Positions 26,391-39,308 of a stretch of 42,839 nt of DNA are shown in pieces (the first letter of the stretch is position 1; the number at the start of each line of letters is the position of its first letter). Made by a program: the position numbers and the translations under genes. Location: positions 1 to 42,839 of the IMG/VR virus record IMGVR_UViG_2870464427_000004. One strand, 5' to 3'. The notes beneath the pieces were generated by a model. That model had not been told where the DNA came from. It did no database searches and saw nothing but the letters and a program-made list of their open reading frames with translations. This DNA comes from a virus (taxonomy: Duplodnaviria > Heunggongvirae > Uroviricota > Caudoviricetes).

Positions 26391-28655
26391 TTACAATCCA
26401 GATTGCAAAATTTCGCAAGTTTTATATATTTCGCGCAATTCCTCATTATTGAAGTCGCAATTTTTTGCAAGTATCCAGAAGCGATAACCCATTCCGTCAA
26501 TTTTTACTAAATCTGTTGGCTGCCTTTTTGTTTTTTCTCGCAATAGCTTTGTTATGTGCTTCTGGTTAATTTCTACATCCATTCCTGCTTCTGCCAGTAT
26601 TGCGTTAACAATTTGTTGATAAGTCATTGCTGGTACAGGCGGATTATCCAGGATTTCAGTAAGAGCAGCCTCCACATCGCTCTTATTGCTTTCAATCATC
26701 AGAAGGCGTTCTTTCGTCTCGGGGGCGCGCTGCCAGTTAAAGCGAGACAGGTCAACGCCCATCAGATACCAGTACACCTGGGCGATAAAGTCGCTGTCGC
26801 TTAGCGCACCGTACAGGCTGGCGTAATGCTCTTCAGTTGCGGCGAAGTCAGGGCCCCCCAGCACAGCGATACGTCGGTCTTCCTCTGGCAGCGCCAGCGC
26901 ATCAAAGTGGTTGGTGTAGAACAGAAAGCCGGTGTATATATCCATCGTTTTTTTGCTGCCATATTTGCGGTTCACTTCAAACCGTGGTTCTGTCAGCACA
27001 TCGCGGATCTTATCGTTCACCTCATACCGCTTATCGTTTTCGCGCACCTCGTCAATGGTGCATAGAAGCGTATTGTACAGATAGTCATGGAACTGGTTAT
27101 CGCACAGGATCTTCATGCGAGTACGAGCACAGTTCCACGGGCCAAGCACGCGCTCCATTAACTGGCTGACCCATCCTCTGCCCGTACCGTGTGCGGTAGC
27201 CACATGCAGAATAGAAATCGGGCATCGACGCTCCGGACGCTGAACCATCCACCCCAGACGGGCGATGAAAAACTCGCGCTGCCATACATCAGGTACCAGA
27301 TACGCCATATGATTAAGGAACGTGGACACCTTACTTGTATCCGCTGTACGTGGATGCTCAGGCATATAAAATTCGTTTATCTCAAACCGCCCGTCGAAAC
27401 GCTCGATAATACGTCCCGCACCGGGCTTATAGCCTGTCGTCTCAGCAATCTTCTTATGCCGATGCTCTATCCACCGTTTGGTTGCGGGAGTTGGTTGCCC
27501 TTTCCCTTCTGGCGGGAACTGGTAAGGCGCCATCAGGTTTTTGAACGACTTCATATCCATCATGCACTGATATGGCGGTCGGCTAAGATCACATACCTGG
27601 TCACCCTCGATGACGTAGATAAAGCGTTCCAGAAAATGAGCTGTCATATCTGTATTAATATCGGTAAATTCAGGCTTATCGCCATCTTCAGCCACCGTGA
27701 GATCTTCGAACAGGGATTGCGTATAGCCGTAGCCTTCCAGCCAGTCGGCATCAGTAAGCCCCGCATCGGTGTTGTGCATGCTTTTAAAATGTCCCTGTTC
27801 AAATCCCCCCGTCCCTTTTGGGAAATACTTAATGGATGTTTCGCTGCAACCGTTGCTGTATTCTGACTCATCCCGAAACGGTTTCAGATTGCGGGAACCA
27901 TCAGAGCTGACTGACAGAGTCCACCCGTTCGCGTCAAGCCAGTCGGCGACATCATCTGTCGCGGAAGGATCAACACAGGAAAGATCACGCTGACGTCCTG
28001 CACCTGCGGTATAGCTGTCTTTCACGGGTAAGTTATCCGCCAGACGCTGCCACAGGCTTTCGAGCTGTTCAGATGTAATTTTCAGAGGTTCGCCGGGCAA
28101 ACCGCAGTCCCACTGAATACGTTCGCCTGCCGGATGGGTACCACAAGCCACAAACTGCTGGCCCTTAGCGAGCAGCTCTATTTGTTTGTTTTCGCCTTCC
28201 AGGCGGTGACCACGTTTACGGTAGTCGCCATCAACAGCAATCAGGTACAGGCATTTATGACTGTCAGCCCGCCAGCGACGTGGCGGAAGTTCCCCCAGGC
28301 ATGACAGGATAATATTGCGTACGATCTCCTGCATCCCGGCGTCATTGATATCGCAGTCCAGAGCCACCACCCCGTCGCCAGTACGAACGCAAATACCGTA
28401 ATCGGGTTCGTTCGACCACCGGGCAAAATCGTTTTCCGTAACAACATAGTTAGCCCAGTCGGGGATACCAACAACCTTACGTTGGCCATTGTAGCGACTG
28501 GGTGTTTTGCCGAAATTATGAGACAGCTTGCTATTAGGCGACAATTCTGCACAGGGATTGGACACCACAGGTAAAAGCCTGTCTGTCATCCCCAACACCA
28601 GATCGAAGTGGAACCACTCATCAGGCGTAGCTCCCCATGGTTTGTTATCAGACAT
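26391..28655 (-). CDS. Replication protein: N-terminal archaeo-eukaryotic-type primase-polymerase domain with P4 alpha/D5-like C-terminal region
   Basis: 754 aa; VVALDCDINDAG (DxD primase motif) near N-terminus; follows cro-like gene; iterons immediately 3'. Confidence 0.75.
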   Translation of the reverse strand: MSDNKPWGATPDEWFHFDLVLGMTDRLLPVVSNPCAELSPNSKLSHNFGKTPSRYNGQRKVVGIPDWANYVVTENDFARWSNEPDYGICVRTGDGVVALDCDINDAGMQEIVRNIILSCLGELPPRRWRADSHKCLYLIAVDGDYRKRGHRLEGENKQIELLAKGQQFVACGTHPAGERIQWDCGLPGEPLKITSEQLESLWQRLADNLPVKDSYTAGAGRQRDLSCVDPSATDDVADWLDANGWTLSVSSDGSRNLKPFRDESEYSNGCSETSIKYFPKGTGGFEQGHFKSMHNTDAGLTDADWLEGYGYTQSLFEDLTVAEDGDKPEFTDINTDMTAHFLERFIYVIEGDQVCDLSRPPYQCMMDMKSFKNLMAPYQFPPEGKGQPTPATKRWIEHRHKKIAETTGYKPGAGRIIERFDGRFEINEFYMPEHPRTADTSKVSTFLNHMAYLVPDVWQREFFIARLGWMVQRPERRCPISILHVATAHGTGRGWVSQLMERVLGPWNCARTRMKILCDNQFHDYLYNTLLCTIDEVRENDKRYEVNDKIRDVLTEPRFEVNRKYGSKKTMDIYTGFLFYTNHFDALALPEEDRRIAVLGGPDFAATEEHYASLYGALSDSDFIAQVYWYLMGVDLSRFNWQRAPETKERLLMIESNKSDVEAALTEILDNPPVPAMTYQQIVNAILAEAGMDVEINQKHITKLLREKTKRQPTDLVKIDGMGYRFWILAKNCDFNNEELREIYKTCEILQSGL

Positions 28656-28658
28656 GGG

Positions 28659-28883
28659 TTACACCTTTTGCTGCTCTGAATTTTCGCCGTTTAATAGCCA
28701 GTCAGGATCGCATTTCAGAACTTTTGCCAATTCAAGGATGAAACCGGTACGGGTAGCGCGTCCGGACTCAAGGTATTGAACAGACTGCTGGCGCATGCCA
28801 ACACTTTTAGCCAATGAAGTTTGGGTTATACCTAAGGCTTTGCGGCGCTCCTTTATACGTGAAGCAAGGGTAGAACTGGTCAT
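28659..28883 (-). CDS. Cro-like HTH transcriptional regulator (XRE family)
   Basis: HTH segment LGITQTSLAKSVGMRQQSVQYLESG; divergent from CI-like repressor; start ATG 28883 with GAGGG RBS (ORF track extends to 28946). Confidence 0.7.
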   Translation of the reverse strand: MTSSTLASRIKERRKALGITQTSLAKSVGMRQQSVQYLESGRATRTGFILELAKVLKCDPDWLLNGENSEQQKV

Positions 28884-28900
28884 TGAGTAAGCCCTCATTA

Positions 28901-28963
28901 TTACAGGTTTACTTGTAATTACCTCACAGGCAACCTTGTTTGTCAAATACAGAAGTATCTGTA
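28901..28963. promoter_or_regulatory. Operator palindromes in cI/cro intergenic region
   Basis: TTACAGGTTTACTTGTAA (28901..28918) and TACAGAAGTATCTGTA (28948..28963); candidate -35 TTGTCA / -10 TAATCA for the cI side. Confidence 0.5.
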
Positions 28964-28990
28964 ATCATCAATGACAGAAAAGGAGTCAAC

Positions 28991-29620
28991 ATGAATCTTG
29001 CCAACCGAGCTAAAAAACGCAGAACAGAACTAAACTTAACTCAGGTCGAAGTTGCGAAACGAGCAGGCATTAGCCAGCAGTCGATTGAAGCTATAGAGAA
29101 TGGGAAAACACTTAAACCACGCAATCTTCTTGCTTTAGCGTCAGCTCTTGAATGCGATCCTAAATGGCTACTTCTTGGGGGCGATGTTGTTACAGATTTC
29201 AACTACGGAGCTCGAAGGGTGCCTGTTCTAAGCTACGTACAAGCCGGGGCTTTCACAAGCGCTGAGCTACTTCGTGAAGAAGGTGATTTCGAATACATTC
29301 TCACCACGGCTGAGCTATCAGAAAGTTCATTTGCGCTACGTATACGTGGGGATTCAATGGAACCTGAATTTAAAGAGGGGGACATCGTTATAATTGACAC
29401 TGACGTATACCCTACTCCTGGTGAATTCGTTGCGGCATGTAACGGTAGCCACGAAGCAACGTTCAAAAAATACCGCCCGGTAGGGATTGGCGCTAAAGGT
29501 GAGGAAGACTTTGAACTTGTTCCATTGAATAGTGATTACCCTATTTGTCGCTCCTGGGAAAAACCAATTAAGATCATAGGGACAATGGTAGAACATCGCA
29601 TATTCCGCAGAAAAAGATAA
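28991..29620 (+). CDS. CI-like repressor (HTH plus LexA/S24 peptidase-like autocleavage domain)
   Basis: HTH LNLTQVEVAKRAGISQQSIEAIENG; C-terminal GDSMEP and FKKY Ser-Lys dyad context; start ATG 28991 with AAAGGAG RBS. Confidence 0.85.
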   Translation: MNLANRAKKRRTELNLTQVEVAKRAGISQQSIEAIENGKTLKPRNLLALASALECDPKWLLLGGDVVTDFNYGARRVPVLSYVQAGAFTSAELLREEGDFEYILTTAELSESSFALRIRGDSMEPEFKEGDIVIIDTDVYPTPGEFVAACNGSHEATFKKYRPVGIGAKGEEDFELVPLNSDYPICRSWEKPIKIIGTMVEHRIFRRKR

Positions 29621-29642
29621 TCGCATCCTGACTACTAAACAA

Positions 29643-29666
29643 AGAGGGCTTAGGCCCTCTTTTTTA
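29643..29666 (+). terminator. Rho-independent terminator after cI
   Basis: agagggc-ttag-gccctct stem followed by TTTTTT. Confidence 0.75.
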
Positions 29667-29722
29667 TTACCCGTAAAAACAAGTAATTAGGTTAATAATG
29701 CATTTTATTACCAAAATACCTG

Positions 29723-29752
29723 TTGACGCATTTACAGGTTTGCTTGTATTTT
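29723..29752 (+). promoter_or_regulatory. Candidate repressor-controlled promoter (-35 TTGACG) overlapping a second operator copy
   Basis: TTACAGGTTTGCTTGTA at 29732..29748 matches the operator at 28901..28918 at 16 of 17 positions. Confidence 0.45.
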
Positions 29753-29996
29753 TAATCGCAATAAGTAATCGCTCTTTAACAAACTGAACCGCGTGACAGG
29801 TAAGCCGCAGTACTCCTGGCAAAATGAAATGGCACCCGATGGGATCGAGGTAAGCGCCGAGTCCGTATGCGTACGGTAAGCGTAGAGGACAACACCGCGA
29901 CGAACTGATAAGTCACGCAAGTTGAAACGCCCCGACGATGGGGCGCTTAGTTCCTTTAACTCTGGGTGGCCGGAAGGGTACCCATGCTTAAAGAAA

Positions 29997-30566
29997 TTAC
30001 TGGTTGTAAGGATCGTAATCCGTGATTGCCTTCCCCGGATTTTCATCTTCAGAAGGCAGTCGGGCCTCTAAAGCATTTCGGTTGAACAGATAGGAAGCCC
30101 TACAGTACGAACAAACCATATTAACGGCTCGCCCAAGGCCTGGCTTAGTAACCAGACCTTCCGCTTGCAATATAGATTTTCTCTTTTGCTCGTAGCAATT
30201 GGGACAAATATAAACCGGAGATTGGTCAGCATCTGCAGAAAGCTTGCTGCGATAGACCAGAGTACCCCGCATAGGCTGGTAAAGTTCATAGCTCGCCGCT
30301 TCAGCGGCCCAGTTCTCTTGCTTTACTTTCTCATTTTCCAGTTCAACAATTTTCTCCTTAGCCGCAATCAGCAGCTCCTGAAGCGACATTTGCTGCATCT
30401 GAACATCCATTAGCTTATCGAGTAAGATGTGCGTCTTCTCTTTAACTGCATAGTCGACAGTCAGATTCTGAATCTCTCTTGCTGCTCCAACCGCGCTTTT
30501 AATTGCTCCTCCCACGCCGGATAACGATTCAGTTATCCGGGAAAGAATTCCTTTTTCTTCAGACAT
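29997..30566 (-). CDS. Hypothetical zinc-ribbon protein (CPNC ... CSYC) adjacent to immunity region
   Basis: 189 aa, coiled-coil N-terminal half, two CxxC pairs; convergent with cI; GAGAGAGA RBS. Confidence 0.6.
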   Translation of the reverse strand: MSEEKGILSRITESLSGVGGAIKSAVGAAREIQNLTVDYAVKEKTHILLDKLMDVQMQQMSLQELLIAAKEKIVELENEKVKQENWAAEAASYELYQPMRGTLVYRSKLSADADQSPVYICPNCYEQKRKSILQAEGLVTKPGLGRAVNMVCSYCRASYLFNRNALEARLPSEDENPGKAITDYDPYNQ

Positions 30567-30705
30567 ATCTAATCTCTCTCAAACTGTAGGGGTGAAGAGA
30601 TATTAGACGATTTCTCACTGTAGGGGTACAAGGAGAACCACCTCGCCTGATGTGGTTAAAAGCAGGCACTCGATGATATCCATGTAATTGCTGTATGTAG
30701 TCTTT

Positions 30706-30731
30706 GCCCGCCTCAAGTGACGGGCTTTTTT
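30706..30731 (+). terminator. Possible intrinsic terminator upstream of early operon
   Basis: gcccg...cgggc stem followed by TTTTTT; short stem, moderate confidence. Confidence 0.4.
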
Positions 30732-30790
30732 ATGTCTGAAAGCGCACTCGCAACAGCGTGCTCCCCGATATGAAAAAAGGAATACAACCG

Positions 30791-30940
30791 ATGAAACCTG
30801 AACACATCCATCGACTGACGGGGCGCGATGTTCTCCGTTATCGCCGTAAAAACTTCGATTTGATGACCGGTCTGGCCGTTGCCACTGCGCTCGGTCTGAT
30901 CATCACTTTCATTCTCCTTGTGGCGAGGACCACAGTATGA
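30791..30940 (+). CDS. Small membrane protein (49 aa) at head of early operon
   Basis: AGGA RBS 10 nt upstream of ATG 30791; C-terminal TM helix LAVATALGLIITFILLV; ORF track start 30758 is GTG. Confidence 0.5.
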   Translation: MKPEHIHRLTGRDVLRYRRKNFDLMTGLAVATALGLIITFILLVARTTV

Positions 30941-31839
30941 GTTTAGAAACCAGTCTCGAACTTAATAATCAACTTCTAGCACAACATAATGCGCTGCTTG
31001 AACGTCTTATCCGCACAATGGCATCAGGTATTGTTATGCATCCTGACACGATTTCACGAGTGCAGGAATGTCGGGATACAGCAACTGAAGCTGAAAACAT
31101 GTCAGCGGCAATGACACTGGATGATCTGGAGTTCAGCGACGTTATCGCACTGGCTGTTTTCTACCCGGTAGCCACCCCTATCACAGAAGACATGCTGCAA
31201 CGTGCTGTTGCCTACCGTGATGCTGAAGGCGATAAACGAGTAGTTCAGATTGATGCTCTCGACAGCGCATTACAGGGCGTCAAACGAGCCAGGGCGCTGC
31301 TTAAACCTGCTCTCCTGGACCTGTCCCGTAACATTCTTAAGTTCTGGGACGACCTGCCAACCATCGGCGAGCGACGTGCTTTTGCCGAGCAGCTACTTGA
31401 TGCACCTGCAGATGGGCGTGATGAAGTTAAGCCGAAAAAGGCCAGTAACAAAGATGGAGAACGCACGGGGCCGTTTTACGTCAAAAATGTATCCGGCACA
31501 GCAGCCAGTGAACTCCACACCTTACGCAAGTTGAACGAGATGCTTAAAAAAGGCCATATCGAGATCAACCGTGTTGAGTACCTTCAGCTGCAGGAAGAAT
31601 TTGCACGCAGAGACGCAGCAAATTCCAGCCAGAATAATGACGCCAAAGATGACCATACAATTGATTTCGCGGCACTACGCAAACAAGCTGAAGGGTTGAT
31701 CCTCCAGTTAGCAAAAGGGGGTTACCGGGCAGAAGCTATTGCAATTCTGGAAAAACAGGGAGCCAGGAAACTTGGTGAAGTAACGGATGAAAATCTCGCT
31801 GAAGTAATCACCCTGGCTGAAAAAGCACTGGAGGGTTAA
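30937..31839 (+). CDS. Hypothetical early protein
   Basis: 300 aa, translationally coupled to flanking genes. Confidence 0.55.
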
Positions 31840-37634: not shown

Positions 37635-38204
37635 TTAGTCAATGCCTTTTTGATTGAACTTCTGATTCTCCAGTATGCTTTGCAGCTCAATATTATCATT
37701 TGCAGCGGTTTGTTTATGCTCATGATATTTTTCTTGCGTATAATTTCTTTCTCTTAGTTTCTGTGCGTAATTATTAGAAATAATATCATGACGATCTTGT
37801 AATACTTGTTCAAGTTGACTTTTAAAGTCCTCTATCTTTTCATTAGAAATAACATTTTTGTACTTTTCAATATCACGGCGAAGTTCTTTTTCTTTCTTCT
37901 TATTAATGCTTAATAACTGTCGATTAACGCTACCTAAGGACCATTTAAACCCAATCGACTTTATCCAATGCGCCAGAAACATAGCGCAACTGGGAAGCAT
38001 TAATAAAAGAAATGGCTTTATTGTATTTAAATCAGAACCAATATACGGAAAACGACCGTCCCACGAGGACACCAGTAATGTTAAAAAACCAGTGATGCCA
38101 CCAGCAGCAACATTAGAAATCAGAGGGACTTTTTCGTAGCTATCAGGTTTAGAAGCGCTACTCAAACGTCCCTCCTTTGACTGATCTTCCAGCACGAATG
38201 GCAT
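37635..38204 (-). CDS. Membrane protein with C-terminal coiled-coil (cassette gene 3)
   Basis: 189 aa; two hydrophobic helices then Lys/Glu-rich coiled-coil; very AT-rich; may start at internal Met (38000). Confidence 0.5.
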   Translation of the reverse strand: MPFVLEDQSKEGRLSSASKPDSYEKVPLISNVAAGGITGFLTLLVSSWDGRFPYIGSDLNTIKPFLLLMLPSCAMFLAHWIKSIGFKWSLGSVNRQLLSINKKKEKELRRDIEKYKNVISNEKIEDFKSQLEQVLQDRHDIISNNYAQKLRERNYTQEKYHEHKQTAANDNIELQSILENQKFNQKGID

Positions 38205-38406
38205 TCATTGCAATTTTGTAAAATTCATCATCAGAAGAGACATCAACGACATCGCGACGGACAACTCCTTCTGAGTCAACACATTCAAGAACAAGATGAT
38301 GTTTAGGCATAAGCGCAAAGCGTAACCGGTCAAACCCCATCTTAAGAACCCAATATAGTACGGGAAGCAGGCTAAAAAAAGCCAGCCAAAAAGCAAAAGC
38401 AATCAT
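38158..38406 (-). CDS. Small membrane protein (cassette gene 2)
   Basis: 82 aa; N-terminal TM helix MIAFAFWLAFFSLLPVLYWVL. Confidence 0.5.
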   Translation of the reverse strand: MIAFAFWLAFFSLLPVLYWVLKMGFDRLRFALMPKHHLVLECVDSEGVVRRDVVDVSSDDEFYKIAMNAIRAGRSVKGGTFE

Positions 38407-38429: not shown

Positions 38430-39308
38430 CTATAAGATGCCGTGTACTTTAACAACTATGTACGTTTTGTCCAGCGAATTCAAGTTCTCACGGACGAGCA
38501 AATCAACGCAGTAAGCATCACTAAAAACACCAGGTTCTCTTCCCGTACTAACACGTTGTAAGAACTCAGTATCTTCTATAGACACGCTGATTGTGTCATC
38601 GCCATAGTTGACTCGCCAGCCTGTGTTTTTATCCTTATGAATAGTCAAAAATGTGATTAGAGCCTCTTCAATCACCCTTTCAGACAAGGACTGCACTACA
38701 GGAACGCGCCTATATCTGAACGGTTCAATATTATCTTCGTGCACCTTAATCAGCTCAACCCCCTGTTGAGTTGAAATTTTAAGCGATTCGTATCCTTCCT
38801 TTTGCAAAGGATTATGAATTAACTTCGATAAGGATTTGCGTATGCTTGGTGAGGCAAGTAAAGGCCGGAAATATGACGGGGCTATAATTTCCTCACCATC
38901 ATCCATAACTATTTTACAGTCTCCTTCCGCTGTTAAAGTCAACCGTTTTATTTGCCTACCATTGATCTGACGAATTAAGTCAATGAGAGTATTTCCTGCT
39001 GCGAGTGCAGTTGTACCTCCAAGCCCAATAATGCTTAATATATTCAAATGGTCAAGTGGATTTTGAATAACATCAATCAAATACTCAAATGAGCCTTCCT
39101 TAAAAGGCTCAACCTCAACATTAATACACTCACTAGTGCCATTGACAACCAAATTAACTTCTTTAAGCAAGTTGTTTAGTCCATTCAATGACTCAGTTAA
39201 AACATCCAAATCTATTTTATGATCTGCTAGTGCGGGACCATCATATTTAACAACTAATTTATCAGTAATATTTTCTTCTTGCTGGACATCTGTATAAGCT
39301 GAGGTCAT
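38430..39308 (-). CDS. Hypothetical soluble protein (cassette gene 1), unknown family
   Basis: 292 aa ORF, AT-rich, divergent from SNF2 helicase gene across a 67-bp spacer. Confidence 0.65.
   Translation of the reverse strand: MTSAYTDVQQEENITDKLVVKYDGPALADHKIDLDVLTESLNGLNNLLKEVNLVVNGTSECINVEVEPFKEGSFEYLIDVIQNPLDHLNILSIIGLGGTTALAAGNTLIDLIRQINGRQIKRLTLTAEGDCKIVMDDGEEIIAPSYFRPLLASPSIRKSLSKLIHNPLQKEGYESLKISTQQGVELIKVHEDNIEPFRYRRVPVVQSLSERVIEEALITFLTIHKDKNTGWRVNYGDDTISVSIEDTEFLQRVSTGREPGVFSDAYCVDLLVRENLNSLDKTYIVVKVHGIL

What the first reader, a model, noticed from the sequence alone, without database searches (positions are those of the whole stretch)
29997..30640. Zinc-ribbon protein gene in the immunity region with duplicated upstream CCCCTACAGT-type repeats
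A 189-aa protein with a coiled-coil half and two CxxC pairs lies convergent to cI, in the position where lambdoid phages carry exclusion genes (rexAB, sieB). Its upstream region has two direct repeats of ACTGTAGGGGT (30585..30595 and 30618..30628) flanking a TAATAT -10-like element, containing the TACAG half-site seen in the CI operators, which suggests repressor-linked control.
Basis: partly seen in the sequence, partly recalled or inferred. Interest (0 to 1): 0.55.

Follow-up and report, generated by a model that had tools for sequence, protein, structure and literature searches.

The report
Rip1 antiphage pore gene, sieB slot
The 189-residue zinc-ribbon protein is a close relative of Rip1, a recently described prophage defence protein that forms membrane pores when it meets ring-shaped phage assembly proteins, and its "upstream repeats" belong to the long-known sieB promoter/antisense-RNA cassette of lambda and P22, so the locus is a new example of known things.

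Summary
ORF 29997..30566 (-) encodes 189 aa with a long helix and two CxxC pairs, convergent with cI.

The upstream ~115 nt is homologous to the sieB promoter and sas antisense-RNA region of P22 and lambda. Both ACCCCTACAG repeats are invariant in lambda, P22, HK620, HK446 and this phage. They are also identical in a heteroimmune sibling phage whose CI is 26% identical. They are therefore not CI operators. The true operators (TTACAG-N6-CTGTAA) lie at 28901, 28947 and 29732.

Among 119 loci carrying the cassette, 90 have SieB, 28 have Rip1 and 1 has another ORF.

What the repeats do remains unresolved.

Side finding: the antisense strand ends in an RprA-like 3' module.

Verdict: new member of a known kind, modest interest.

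The parts
29997..30566 (-). rip1 homologue CDS (189 aa). It has an N-terminal amphipathic Gly/Ala-rich helix, a long coiled-coil helix, and a beta-rich C-terminal domain with a CxxC...CxxC zinc ribbon. A 25-residue tail ends in TDYDPY.
30583..30593 (-). Proximal repeat (ACCCCTACAGT on the gene strand), starting 7 nt downstream of the -10-like hexamer. By homology with the annotated P22 P_sieB, this is at or near the transcription start.
   Evidence: In Rip1 loci found by protein it sits at about -26 from the ATG.
30600..30605 (-). -10-like hexamer TAATAT of the P_sieB-like promoter. It corresponds to TAAACT in P22 and TAAAAT in HK446/HK620.
   Evidence: Alignment A1. The P22-pbi feature 'P sieB' covers the homologous stretch.
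30617..30627 (-). Distal repeat (ACCCCTACAGT), overlapping the -35 region of the P_sieB-like promoter. On the + strand it lies between the arms UUCUC (30612-16) and GAGAA (30633-37) of a conserved hairpin.
   Evidence: The helix is 95% paired in 34 distinct sequences, with U-G wobbles and 3 double changes.
30555..30669 (+). sas-like antisense RNA region. It is the homologue of the P22 sas RNA and covers the rip1 start codon, the SD, both repeats and the hairpin region (AACCAC 30636-41 / GTGGTT 30652-57; GCCTG 30645-49 / CAGGC 30663-67).
   Evidence: The P22 sas sequence from RNA-seq (PMC13397905 Table 2) aligns with 92 of 118 columns identical. The GCCUG/CAGGC helix is 100% paired with 3 compensatory changes.
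30686..30735 (+). RprA-like 3' module plus intrinsic terminator (stem GCCCG 30706-10 / CGGGC 30721-25, T-run 30726-31). It occupies the position of the HK620 terminator tL2A, at the end of the antisense stretch.
   Evidence: Rfam RF00034 RprA at 42.3 bits, below gathering (70), E=0.0015. blastn hits the annotated rprA in 5,419 of 5,426 E. coli genomes. Alignment A4.
29928..29945 (.). GC-rich hairpin (CGCCCCGACGATGGGGCG) 52 nt past the rip1 stop codon. It is a probable bidirectional terminator, for rip1 on the - strand and for pL transcripts on the + strand.
   Evidence: Read directly from the sequence. Also seen in the MFE fold. The consensus terminator scan did not call it.
29723..29752 (+). 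pL-like promoter (TTGACG-18-TATTTT), overlapped by a third CI operator copy (29732-29749). It would drive antisense transcription across rip1.
   Evidence: Promoter scan. Operator repeat 90% identical to the cI/cro intergenic copy (D2). Operator pattern search.
29771..29782 (+). boxA-like GCTCTTTAACAA at the start of the leader. Homology with the heteroimmune sibling phage starts at about this point.
   Evidence: It is the only exact copy in the window. Searches show the homology boundary.
28991..29620 (+). cI-type repressor (HTH_3 + Peptidase_S24), followed by a terminator at 29641-29662. It is convergent with rip1.
   Evidence: Pfam. Terminator scan. RefSeq annotation as 'LexA family protein'.

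Best explanation
The gene encodes a Rip1-family ('ring interacting pore 1') abortive-infection protein carried as a moron by an E. coli prophage.

Inferred from the characterised homologues: the protein is made in the lysogen and is harmless on its own. When a superinfecting phage produces oligomeric ring proteins (small terminase or portal), the C-terminal zinc-ribbon domain binds the ring. About 12 Rip1 copies assemble around it. The N-terminal amphipathic helices then form a membrane pore, killing the cell before progeny mature.

Shown here: the gene is embedded, antisense, in the CI-repressed early-left operon, as sieB is in lambda and P22. It is preceded by the same conserved cassette that precedes sieB, namely the P_sieB promoter overlapped by the sas antisense-RNA region.

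The two ACCCCTACAGT repeats are invariant parts of that cassette, one over the -35 region and one at the transcription start. They are not operators of this phage's CI.

Inferred: lytic transcription from pL yields an antisense RNA over the rip1 5' end that may damp rip1 expression during the phage's own lytic growth.
For: Protein identity:
- phmmer against PDB gives a single hit, 9oox_L 'ring interacting pore 1 (Rip1)' of phage HK446, at E=3.5e-47 over residues 3-166.
- HK446_037 translates to that chain's sequence.
- tblastn identity is 53% to HK446, about 29% to HK620 HkaP and about 32% to D3112 orf25.
- D3112 orf25 lies on the opposite strand between orf24 (a DNA-binding-protein homologue) and orf26, just upstream of the portal gene. 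This fits the review's 'between the small and large terminase genes' for the Pseudomonas prophage Rip1.
- The mechanism summary is from review PMC13434031, section 5, with supporting mentions in PMC12908700 and PMC13601566.
- The CxxC pairs are invariant. The most amphipathic segment is residues 7-36, with muH 0.36-0.44.
- The family has 3,430 50%-identity clusters, nearly all 150-215 aa.

Cassette:
- 159 phage records match the upstream 134 nt, including the annotated 'P sieB' of P22-pbi and the region just upstream of lambda sieB.
- Both repeats are invariant in alignment A1.
- The P22 sas RNA aligns to 30555-30669.
- Of 119 loci with the cassette, 90 carry SieB, 28 carry Rip1 and 1 carries another ORF.
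- About 20 of 29 distinct upstream sequences of Rip1 loci found by protein keep both repeats.

Not CI-controlled.

Context: pL-like promoter with operator.
Against: - No experiment on this particular protein exists. It is 53% identical to HK446 Rip1 and has an extra 25-residue C-terminal tail, so its trigger range is unknown.
- The primary Rip1 paper could not be read. The mechanism is taken from a review and from the PDB entry title.
- AF2 confidence is only moderate (pLDDT 68.7).
- No sigma-70-like promoter for the antisense RNA was found inside rip1.
- Read-through of the 29928-45 hairpin is assumed, not shown.
- The predicted folds of the antisense RNA are not more stable than shuffles (z=-0.84).
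- The -35 region of the promoter is poor, so expression in the lysogen is inferred from sieB, not demonstrated.
Confidence: 0.85

Rival explanations
1. One reading: the repeats are CI-related half-sites, so the exclusion gene is switched by the prophage repressor.
For: The motif contains TACAG, which is also the half-site of the real operators TTACAG-N6-CTGTAA. The gene lies next to the immunity region.
Against: - No dyad with 3 or fewer mismatches exists in 30000-31000.
- The repeats are invariant in lambda, P22, HK620 and HK446, which are annotated with different repressors and operators.
- They are unchanged in vB_EcoM-606R2, whose CI is 26% identical and whose pL region differs.
- The cassette also accompanies rip1 next to terminase genes in Photorhabdus, far from any immunity region.
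Confidence: 0.04
2. The repeats are DNA sites for a conserved host (or widely shared phage) transcription factor. It would bind once over the -35 region and once at +1 of P_sieB, setting the low constitutive level or a stress response of the exclusion gene.
For: - The two copies are about 34-35 nt apart at fixed positions relative to the -10.
- The -35 hexamer is poor, which suits an activator-dependent promoter.
- The core ACCCCTACA is unchanged in nearly all cassettes recovered from diverse Enterobacterales prophages, whatever the cargo.
- In Photorhabdus loci and in L183, both copies carry the same G-to-A change.
Against: - No factor is known.
- The concerted change is not universal: L182, L178 and L185 differ between their two copies.
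- Conservation is equally explained by the overlapping antisense RNA.
- No paper mentioning the motif in this context was found.
Confidence: 0.25
3. The repeats act at the RNA level. In the sas-like antisense RNA, CUGUAGGGGU is presented twice, with at least the distal copy in a hairpin loop. These copies would serve as nucleation sites for pairing with the 5' end of the rip1 (or sieB) mRNA, which begins with ACCCCUACAG. This would shut off translation during the phage's own lytic growth.
For: - The P22 sas RNA detected by RNA-seq contains both copies.
- The stem flanking the distal copy is 95% paired, with U-A to U-G changes that remain pairs only on the antisense strand, plus 3 double changes.
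- The 3' hairpin GCCUG/CAGGC shows 3 compensatory changes.
- sas is reported to switch sieB translation.
Against: - The stem around the proximal copy is no better than with flanks swapped between sequences (native -3.05 vs swapped -2.82 kcal/mol, p=0.23). It is absent in lambda.
- RNAalifold gives only a weak consensus (-7.5 kcal/mol).
- The fold z-score is not significant.
- Sequence divergence is low, so covariation counts are small.
- No antisense promoter is identified in this window.
Confidence: 0.3
4. The protein is an ordinary regulatory or nucleic-acid-binding zinc-ribbon protein (for example a transcription factor or an anti-repressor), not a defence effector.
For: Zinc ribbons are common in DNA- and RNA-binding proteins. 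There is no Pfam, NCBIfam or PADLOC hit.
Against: - There is full-length, high-significance homology to structurally and functionally characterised Rip1.
- The gene has a moron arrangement (opposite strand, own promoter and terminator) in every context examined.
- PADLOC-DB (2023) predates the description of Rip1.
Confidence: 0.03

Closest known systems
Rip1 of Escherichia phage HK446 (HK446_037; PDB 9OOX) and Rip1 of a Pseudomonas aeruginosa prophage (Patel et al. 2026, Nature 651:1060, as summarised in PMC13434031)
   Same: - It has the same family and architecture: an amphipathic N-terminal helix, a long helix, and a C-terminal domain with two CxxC pairs.
- It is prophage-encoded on the strand opposite to its neighbours.
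- HK446 Rip1 has the same upstream cassette with both repeats.
   Different: - It has 25 extra C-terminal residues ending in TDYDPY, shared with P0004 and P0011 but absent from HK446 Rip1.
- The host phage is not lambdoid in its replication module (PrimPol/DUF5906 primase, gp2.5-like SSB, DNA polymerase).
- There is no N gene between pL and rip1.
- Trigger and activity are untested.
sieB / esc / sas superinfection-exclusion module of P22 and lambda (Ranade & Poteete 1993, as cited in PMC12197685 and 10.1101/787010)
   Same: - It occupies the same genomic slot, antisense within the pL operon.
- The promoter / antisense-RNA cassette is homologous, at 83-87% identity over about 90 nt.
- Repeats, hairpins and -10 position are the same.
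- The gene is likewise expected to be expressed from the prophage.
   Different: - The cargo protein is unrelated to SieB: BLASTP E=0.74, no match to a Pfam SieB family, and no membrane-spanning segments.
- There is no conserved internal start that could give an Esc-like product.
- In this lineage the antisense stretch ends in an RprA-like terminator module not seen in lambda, P22, HK620 or HK446.
HkaP of phage HK620 (annotated 'putative superinfection exclusion protein')
   Same: It is a distant member of the same protein family (about 29% identity). It sits in the same slot between N/hkaQ and cIII and has the same upstream cassette.
   Different: It is much more divergent in sequence and has never been tested. 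Its annotation was by position only.

Membership tests
Rip1 (ring interacting pore 1) antiphage proteins | Significant full-length sequence similarity to an experimentally characterised Rip1 | tested here: met
   phmmer against PDB hits 9oox_L at E=3.5e-47, query 3-166 vs chain 3-162 of 164. tblastn gives 53% identity to HK446.
Rip1 (ring interacting pore 1) antiphage proteins | Fold: N-terminal helical part plus a C-terminal ring-contacting domain | tested here: met
Rip1 (ring interacting pore 1) antiphage proteins | Amphipathic N-terminal helix able to form the pore | tested here: met
   A helix is predicted at residues 6-34. The highest helical hydrophobic moment of the protein is in residues 7-36 (0.36-0.44), with a small-residue Gly/Ala face. 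Pore formation itself was not tested.
Rip1 (ring interacting pore 1) antiphage proteins | Prophage-encoded single gene, separately transcribed from the surrounding phage operon | tested here: met
   It lies on the opposite strand inside the early-left operon of an E. coli prophage integrated next to yfhL, with its own promoter-like region and a downstream hairpin. The same arrangement is seen in HK446, HK620, D3112, Yersinia, Photorhabdus and Mu-like contigs.
Rip1 (ring interacting pore 1) antiphage proteins | Activation by oligomeric small terminase or portal rings, a roughly 12-mer assembly, membrane permeabilisation and abortive infection | not testable with these tools
   Known only from the review summary of Patel et al. 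2026 and the PDB entry.
sieB-type exclusion module (P_sieB / sas / SieB / Esc) | Homologous P_sieB promoter region immediately upstream of the gene | tested here: met
   There is 86% identity over 86 nt to the stretch annotated 'P sieB' in P22-pbi. It aligns column by column with lambda, P22, HK620 and HK446.
sieB-type exclusion module (P_sieB / sas / SieB / Esc) | sas antisense RNA overlapping the start of the gene | tested here: inconclusive
   A sequence homologue of the P22 sas RNA is present (92 of 118 columns). Two helices are supported modestly. Neither its transcription in this phage nor its promoter could be established.
sieB-type exclusion module (P_sieB / sas / SieB / Esc) | SieB protein as the effector | tested here: not met
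   No Pfam hit to a SieB family. BLASTP against P22 SieB gives E=0.74. In all-against-all clustering it falls in a separate component from the 90 SieB proteins.
sieB-type exclusion module (P_sieB / sas / SieB / Esc) | In-frame internal start giving an Esc-like antidote | tested here: not met
   Internal Met53, Met57 and Met60 are not conserved across homologues. By eye they have no convincing Shine-Dalgarno sequence.
CI operator of this phage | Dyad TTACAG-N6-CTGTAA | tested here: not met
   In the immunity region, sites with 2 or fewer mismatches occur only at 28901, 28947 and 29732. None lies in 30000-31000, even at 3 mismatches.

The most novel reading that the evidence does not exclude
The conserved sieB-type cassette may be a portable self-immunity switch that phages attach to different abortive-infection effectors (SieB, Rip1 and others).

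Whichever lytic operon the moron is embedded in, transcription of that operon would produce a sas-like antisense RNA. Its two CUGUAGGGGU motifs would capture the 5' end of the effector mRNA, silencing Rip1 synthesis while the resident phage builds its own terminase and portal rings.

In this lineage the antisense RNA has additionally acquired an RprA-like Hfq-type 3' module. It could therefore also act in trans on host RprA targets.
Probability: 0.2. Interest if true: 0.55.

Novelty: new member of a known kind. Interest (0 to 1): 0.3.

Why it matters
The result assigns a probable function (Rip1-type abortive infection) to a gene that RefSeq and GenBank still call 'hypothetical protein' in E. 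coli prophages and phage isolates.

It shows that the classical sieB promoter/antisense cassette is shared by at least two unrelated exclusion effectors. The cassette also travels with rip1 to other genomic positions. That makes it a useful marker for finding further prophage defence cargo.

It leaves one concrete open question, namely what the invariant ACCCCTACA repeats do. If the antisense cassette controls Rip1, it would explain how a prophage avoids triggering its own ring-sensing suicide protein.

Tried and rejected
- Pfam, NCBIfam and PADLOC gave no meaningful hit for the protein. PHROGs gave only an unnamed family.
- Rfam at gathering thresholds found nothing in the window.
- I suspected a covarying stem around the proximal repeat, with the -10 region pairing with the SD region. 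Per-sequence folding showed native flanks are no better than flanks swapped between sequences (p=0.23), and lambda has no stem. The idea is dropped; the pairing reflects pyrimidine/purine composition.
- RNAalifold gave only a weak consensus. Folds of 29760-29960 and 30555-30737 are not more stable than shuffles.
- The AACCAC/GTGGTT hairpin is 92% paired but has little covariation and overlaps the better-supported GCCUG/CAGGC helix.
- An Esc-like internal start was considered and rejected.
- The repeats as a CI operator were rejected.
- The primary Rip1 paper and the 1993 sieB paper are not held. Searches for 'hkaP', for 'Rip1'+'HK446' and for the motif itself were unproductive.
- The genome-contig scan failed with alignment A2 and returned only two loci with A5.
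- No sigma-70-like promoter for the antisense RNA was found inside rip1 (and inspection).

Full report
**Observation.** The ORF at 29997..30566 on the minus strand encodes 189 aa. It is convergent with a repressor gene that carries HTH_3 and Peptidase_S24 domains. RefSeq places that gene's start at window 28991.

The protein has two CxxC pairs (C121/C124 and C152/C155), which are invariant in homologues. An AlphaFold2 model (mean pLDDT 68.7) predicts helices at 6-34 and 39-90, followed by a beta-rich C-terminal half.

The exact 11-mer ACTGTAGGGGT occurs twice in the window and nowhere else, at 30583-30593 and 30617-30627. On the gene strand the copies read ACCCCTACAGT and flank TAATAT (30600-30605).

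**Local context.** The repressor's operators are dyads of the type TTACAG-N6-CTGTAA.
- Two lie in the cI/cro intergenic region, at 28901-28918 and 28947-28964.
- A third, at 29732-29749, overlaps a promoter-like TTGACG-18-TATTTT at 29723-29752 on the plus strand, just after the cI terminator at 29641-29662.

This third site looks like the pL equivalent. Transcripts from it would:
- pass an exact boxA-like GCTCTTTAACAA at 29771-29782, the only copy in the window;
- pass a GC hairpin at 29928-29945;
- run antisense through the 189-aa gene;
- pass a plus-strand terminator at 30706-30731;
- enter an operon encoding an exonuclease, a gp2.5-like SSB and a DNA polymerase.

The gene is thus an opposite-strand insert in the early-left operon, the arrangement of sieB in lambda and P22.

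**The upstream region is the sieB promoter / sas cassette.**
- The 134 nt upstream of the gene match 159 phage records at 83-87% identity over about 90 nt. These include lambda, P22, HK620, HK446 and many Salmonella and E. coli phages.
- In P22-pbi the matching stretch is annotated 'P sieB' and lies just upstream of sieB/esc. In lambda it lies between ral and N, where sieB is.
- In a five-way alignment, both ACCCCTACAG copies, the intervening -10 position and an upstream hairpin region are invariant, while the coding sequences differ.
- A 2026 RNA-seq study lists the P22 sas antisense RNA as a 127-nt species. Its sequence runs from the complement of the sieB start codon through both repeats and the hairpins (PMC13397905). 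It aligns to window 30555-30669 on the plus strand with 92 of 118 columns identical.
- sas is described as an antisense RNA that switches sieB translation between SieB and Esc (PMC12197685; 10.1101/787010).

**The repeats are not CI operators.**
- The region has no operator dyad, even at three mismatches.
- The repeats are identical in phages annotated with different repressors and operators.
- They are identical in the sibling phage vB_EcoM-606R2 (upstream region 99.3% identical). Its repressor is only 26% identical, and its pL region is unrelated up to about boxA.
- In Photorhabdus prophages the same cassette precedes a Rip1-family gene located beside the small-terminase gene, far from any immunity region.

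**The protein is Rip1.**
- Pfam, NCBIfam and PADLOC gave nothing. PHROGs gave phrog_1244, of unknown function.
- tblastn found about 97% identity in four vB_EcoM-6xxR phages, 53% in HK446 and ev099, about 29% in HK620 HkaP, and about 32% in D3112-like Pseudomonas phages. HkaP is annotated by position as a 'putative superinfection exclusion protein'.
- phmmer against all PDB sequences gave the same single hit at E=3.5e-47 over essentially the full length. HK446_037 translates to that chain's sequence.
- A 2026 review summarises the primary work (Patel et al., Nature 651:1060), as follows (PMC13434031):
  - Rip1 is a prophage protein that is not toxic alone.
  - Escapers map to portal (Pseudomonas phages) or small terminase (E. 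coli phages).
  - Twelve Rip1 copies encircle an 11-mer small-terminase ring.
  - The N-terminal amphipathic helix and the C-terminal ring-contacting half create a pore that permeabilises membranes.
  - The family is widespread in proteobacterial prophages.
- D3112 orf25 lies on the opposite strand in the packaging-gene region, just upstream of the portal gene, consistent with that description.
- An exhaustive profile search found 3,430 clusters at 50% identity, nearly all 150-215 aa.
- The protein is unrelated to SieB.

I could not read the primary paper.

**One cassette, several cargoes.** A DNA-pattern scan of IMG/VR for the distal repeat plus flank returned 120 loci. With the reference phages, 119 of these loci have a downstream ORF. 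Of those, 90 are SieB-family, 28 are Rip1-family and 1 is an unrelated 80-aa ORF.

Conversely, I looked at Rip1 loci found by protein similarity. About 20 of 29 distinct upstream sequences keep both repeats, at about -61 and -26 from the ATG. Mu-like and Erwinia loci lack the cassette. Two long-variant loci keep only its distal part.

**What the repeats do.** This is unresolved.
- By homology with the annotated P22 promoter, the distal copy overlaps the poor -35 region and the proximal copy lies at the transcription start.
- On the antisense strand, the distal copy sits between arms of a hairpin that is 95% paired in 34 distinct sequences. That hairpin has U-G wobbles that would be mismatches on the sense strand, plus three double changes. 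A 3' hairpin, GCCUG/CAGGC, is 100% paired with three compensatory changes.
- This is modest support for RNA structure, because divergence is low.
- My by-eye stem around the proximal copy failed a swap control. Thermodynamic z-scores are not significant.
- In Photorhabdus loci and in one other locus, both copies carry the same G-to-A change, but other loci differ between copies.
- A DNA-binding factor and an RNA role both remain possible.

**Comparison and novelty.** The locus is a new member of the Rip1 family.
- It differs from HK446 Rip1 by a 25-residue tail ending in TDYDPY, shared with two other long homologues.
- It sits in the sieB slot of a non-lambdoid-replication prophage of E. coli integrated next to yfhL, where RefSeq still calls it hypothetical.
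- Neither the protein family nor the cassette is new.
- I could not find a description of the sharing of one cassette by SieB and Rip1, or of its movement with rip1 to other positions. This is of moderate interest.

**Side observations.**
- The plus strand at 30686-30735 closely resembles the 3' part of the E. coli sRNA RprA, including its terminator (Rfam 42.3 bits, below gathering, E=0.0015). Nearly identical sequence runs over AATTGCTGTnTGTAGTCTTTGCCC, and blastn hits the annotated rprA in 5,419 of 5,426 E. coli genomes. Lambda, P22, HK620 and HK446 do not show this.
- A 292-aa opposite-strand gene at 38430-39308 matches the PADLOC candidate defence system PDC-S42 at E=6e-40.

Noticed in passing
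window 30686-30735 (+): An RprA-like 3' module ends the antisense (sas-like) stretch. The sequence AATTGCTGTATGTAGTCTTTGCCC plus a terminator differs from the matching 3' part of E. coli rprA at one position in that 24-nt run. Rfam RF00034 scores 42.3 bits, below gathering (70). It is present in the 606R2-type phages and in 145 E. coli genomes, but is not detected in lambda, P22, HK620 or HK446. It could be a phage mimic of a host sRNA or only a shared terminator.
   Followed up: partly
window 29723-29996 (+): A pL-like promoter with an overlapping CI operator is followed by an exact boxA-like GCTCTTTAACAA (29771-82). After that comes a roughly 215-nt non-coding leader ending in a GC hairpin. 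No N-like ORF lies between the promoter and rip1. Homology with a heteroimmune sibling phage begins at about boxA. This suggests a nut-like or RNA-based antitermination leader. The fold is not more stable than shuffles, and GenBank annotates a dubious 47-aa ORF there.
   Followed up: partly
window 38430-39308 (-), with 38158-38406 (-) and 37635-38204 (-): A second opposite-strand gene cluster sits inside the early-left operon. The 292-aa product matches the PADLOC candidate defence system PDC-S42 (E=6e-40) and weakly matches Pfam DUF7946. Its two neighbours have no hits. This is probably another prophage defence moron.
   Followed up: partly
window 28600-29770 vs L001 (ON470579.1): The immunity region (cI, cro, operators, pL) has been swapped relative to the otherwise ~99%-identical phages vB_EcoM-606R2, 611R5 and 689R2. 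The repressors are only 26% identical. One boundary lies at about the boxA-like site.
   Followed up: partly
L012, L024, L076, L107 (IMG/VR loci): In these cassette variants the proximal repeat and the cargo gene are replaced, right after the -10 region, by a hairpin-like CCCCCTTATTTTGTCAGGGGG. They look like cassettes that have lost their cargo.
   Followed up: no
L014 (IMG/VR): One cassette copy is followed by an unrelated 80-aa ORF (MSDIPTMTFPIGL...) instead of SieB or Rip1. This may be a third kind of cargo.
   Followed up: no
window 29997-30071 (protein residues 165-189): The C-terminal tail, predicted to be disordered, ends in a conserved TDYDPY motif. It is shared by the 188-189-aa homologues P0004 and P0011 but is absent from HK446 Rip1 and most of the family.
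   Followed up: no
L144, L145 (IMG/VR): These long-variant Rip1 loci (about 50% identity) keep the distal hairpin and the RprA-like piece upstream. They lack both ACCCCTACAG repeats and the -10, so the promoter-proximal half of the cassette has been replaced there.
   Followed up: no
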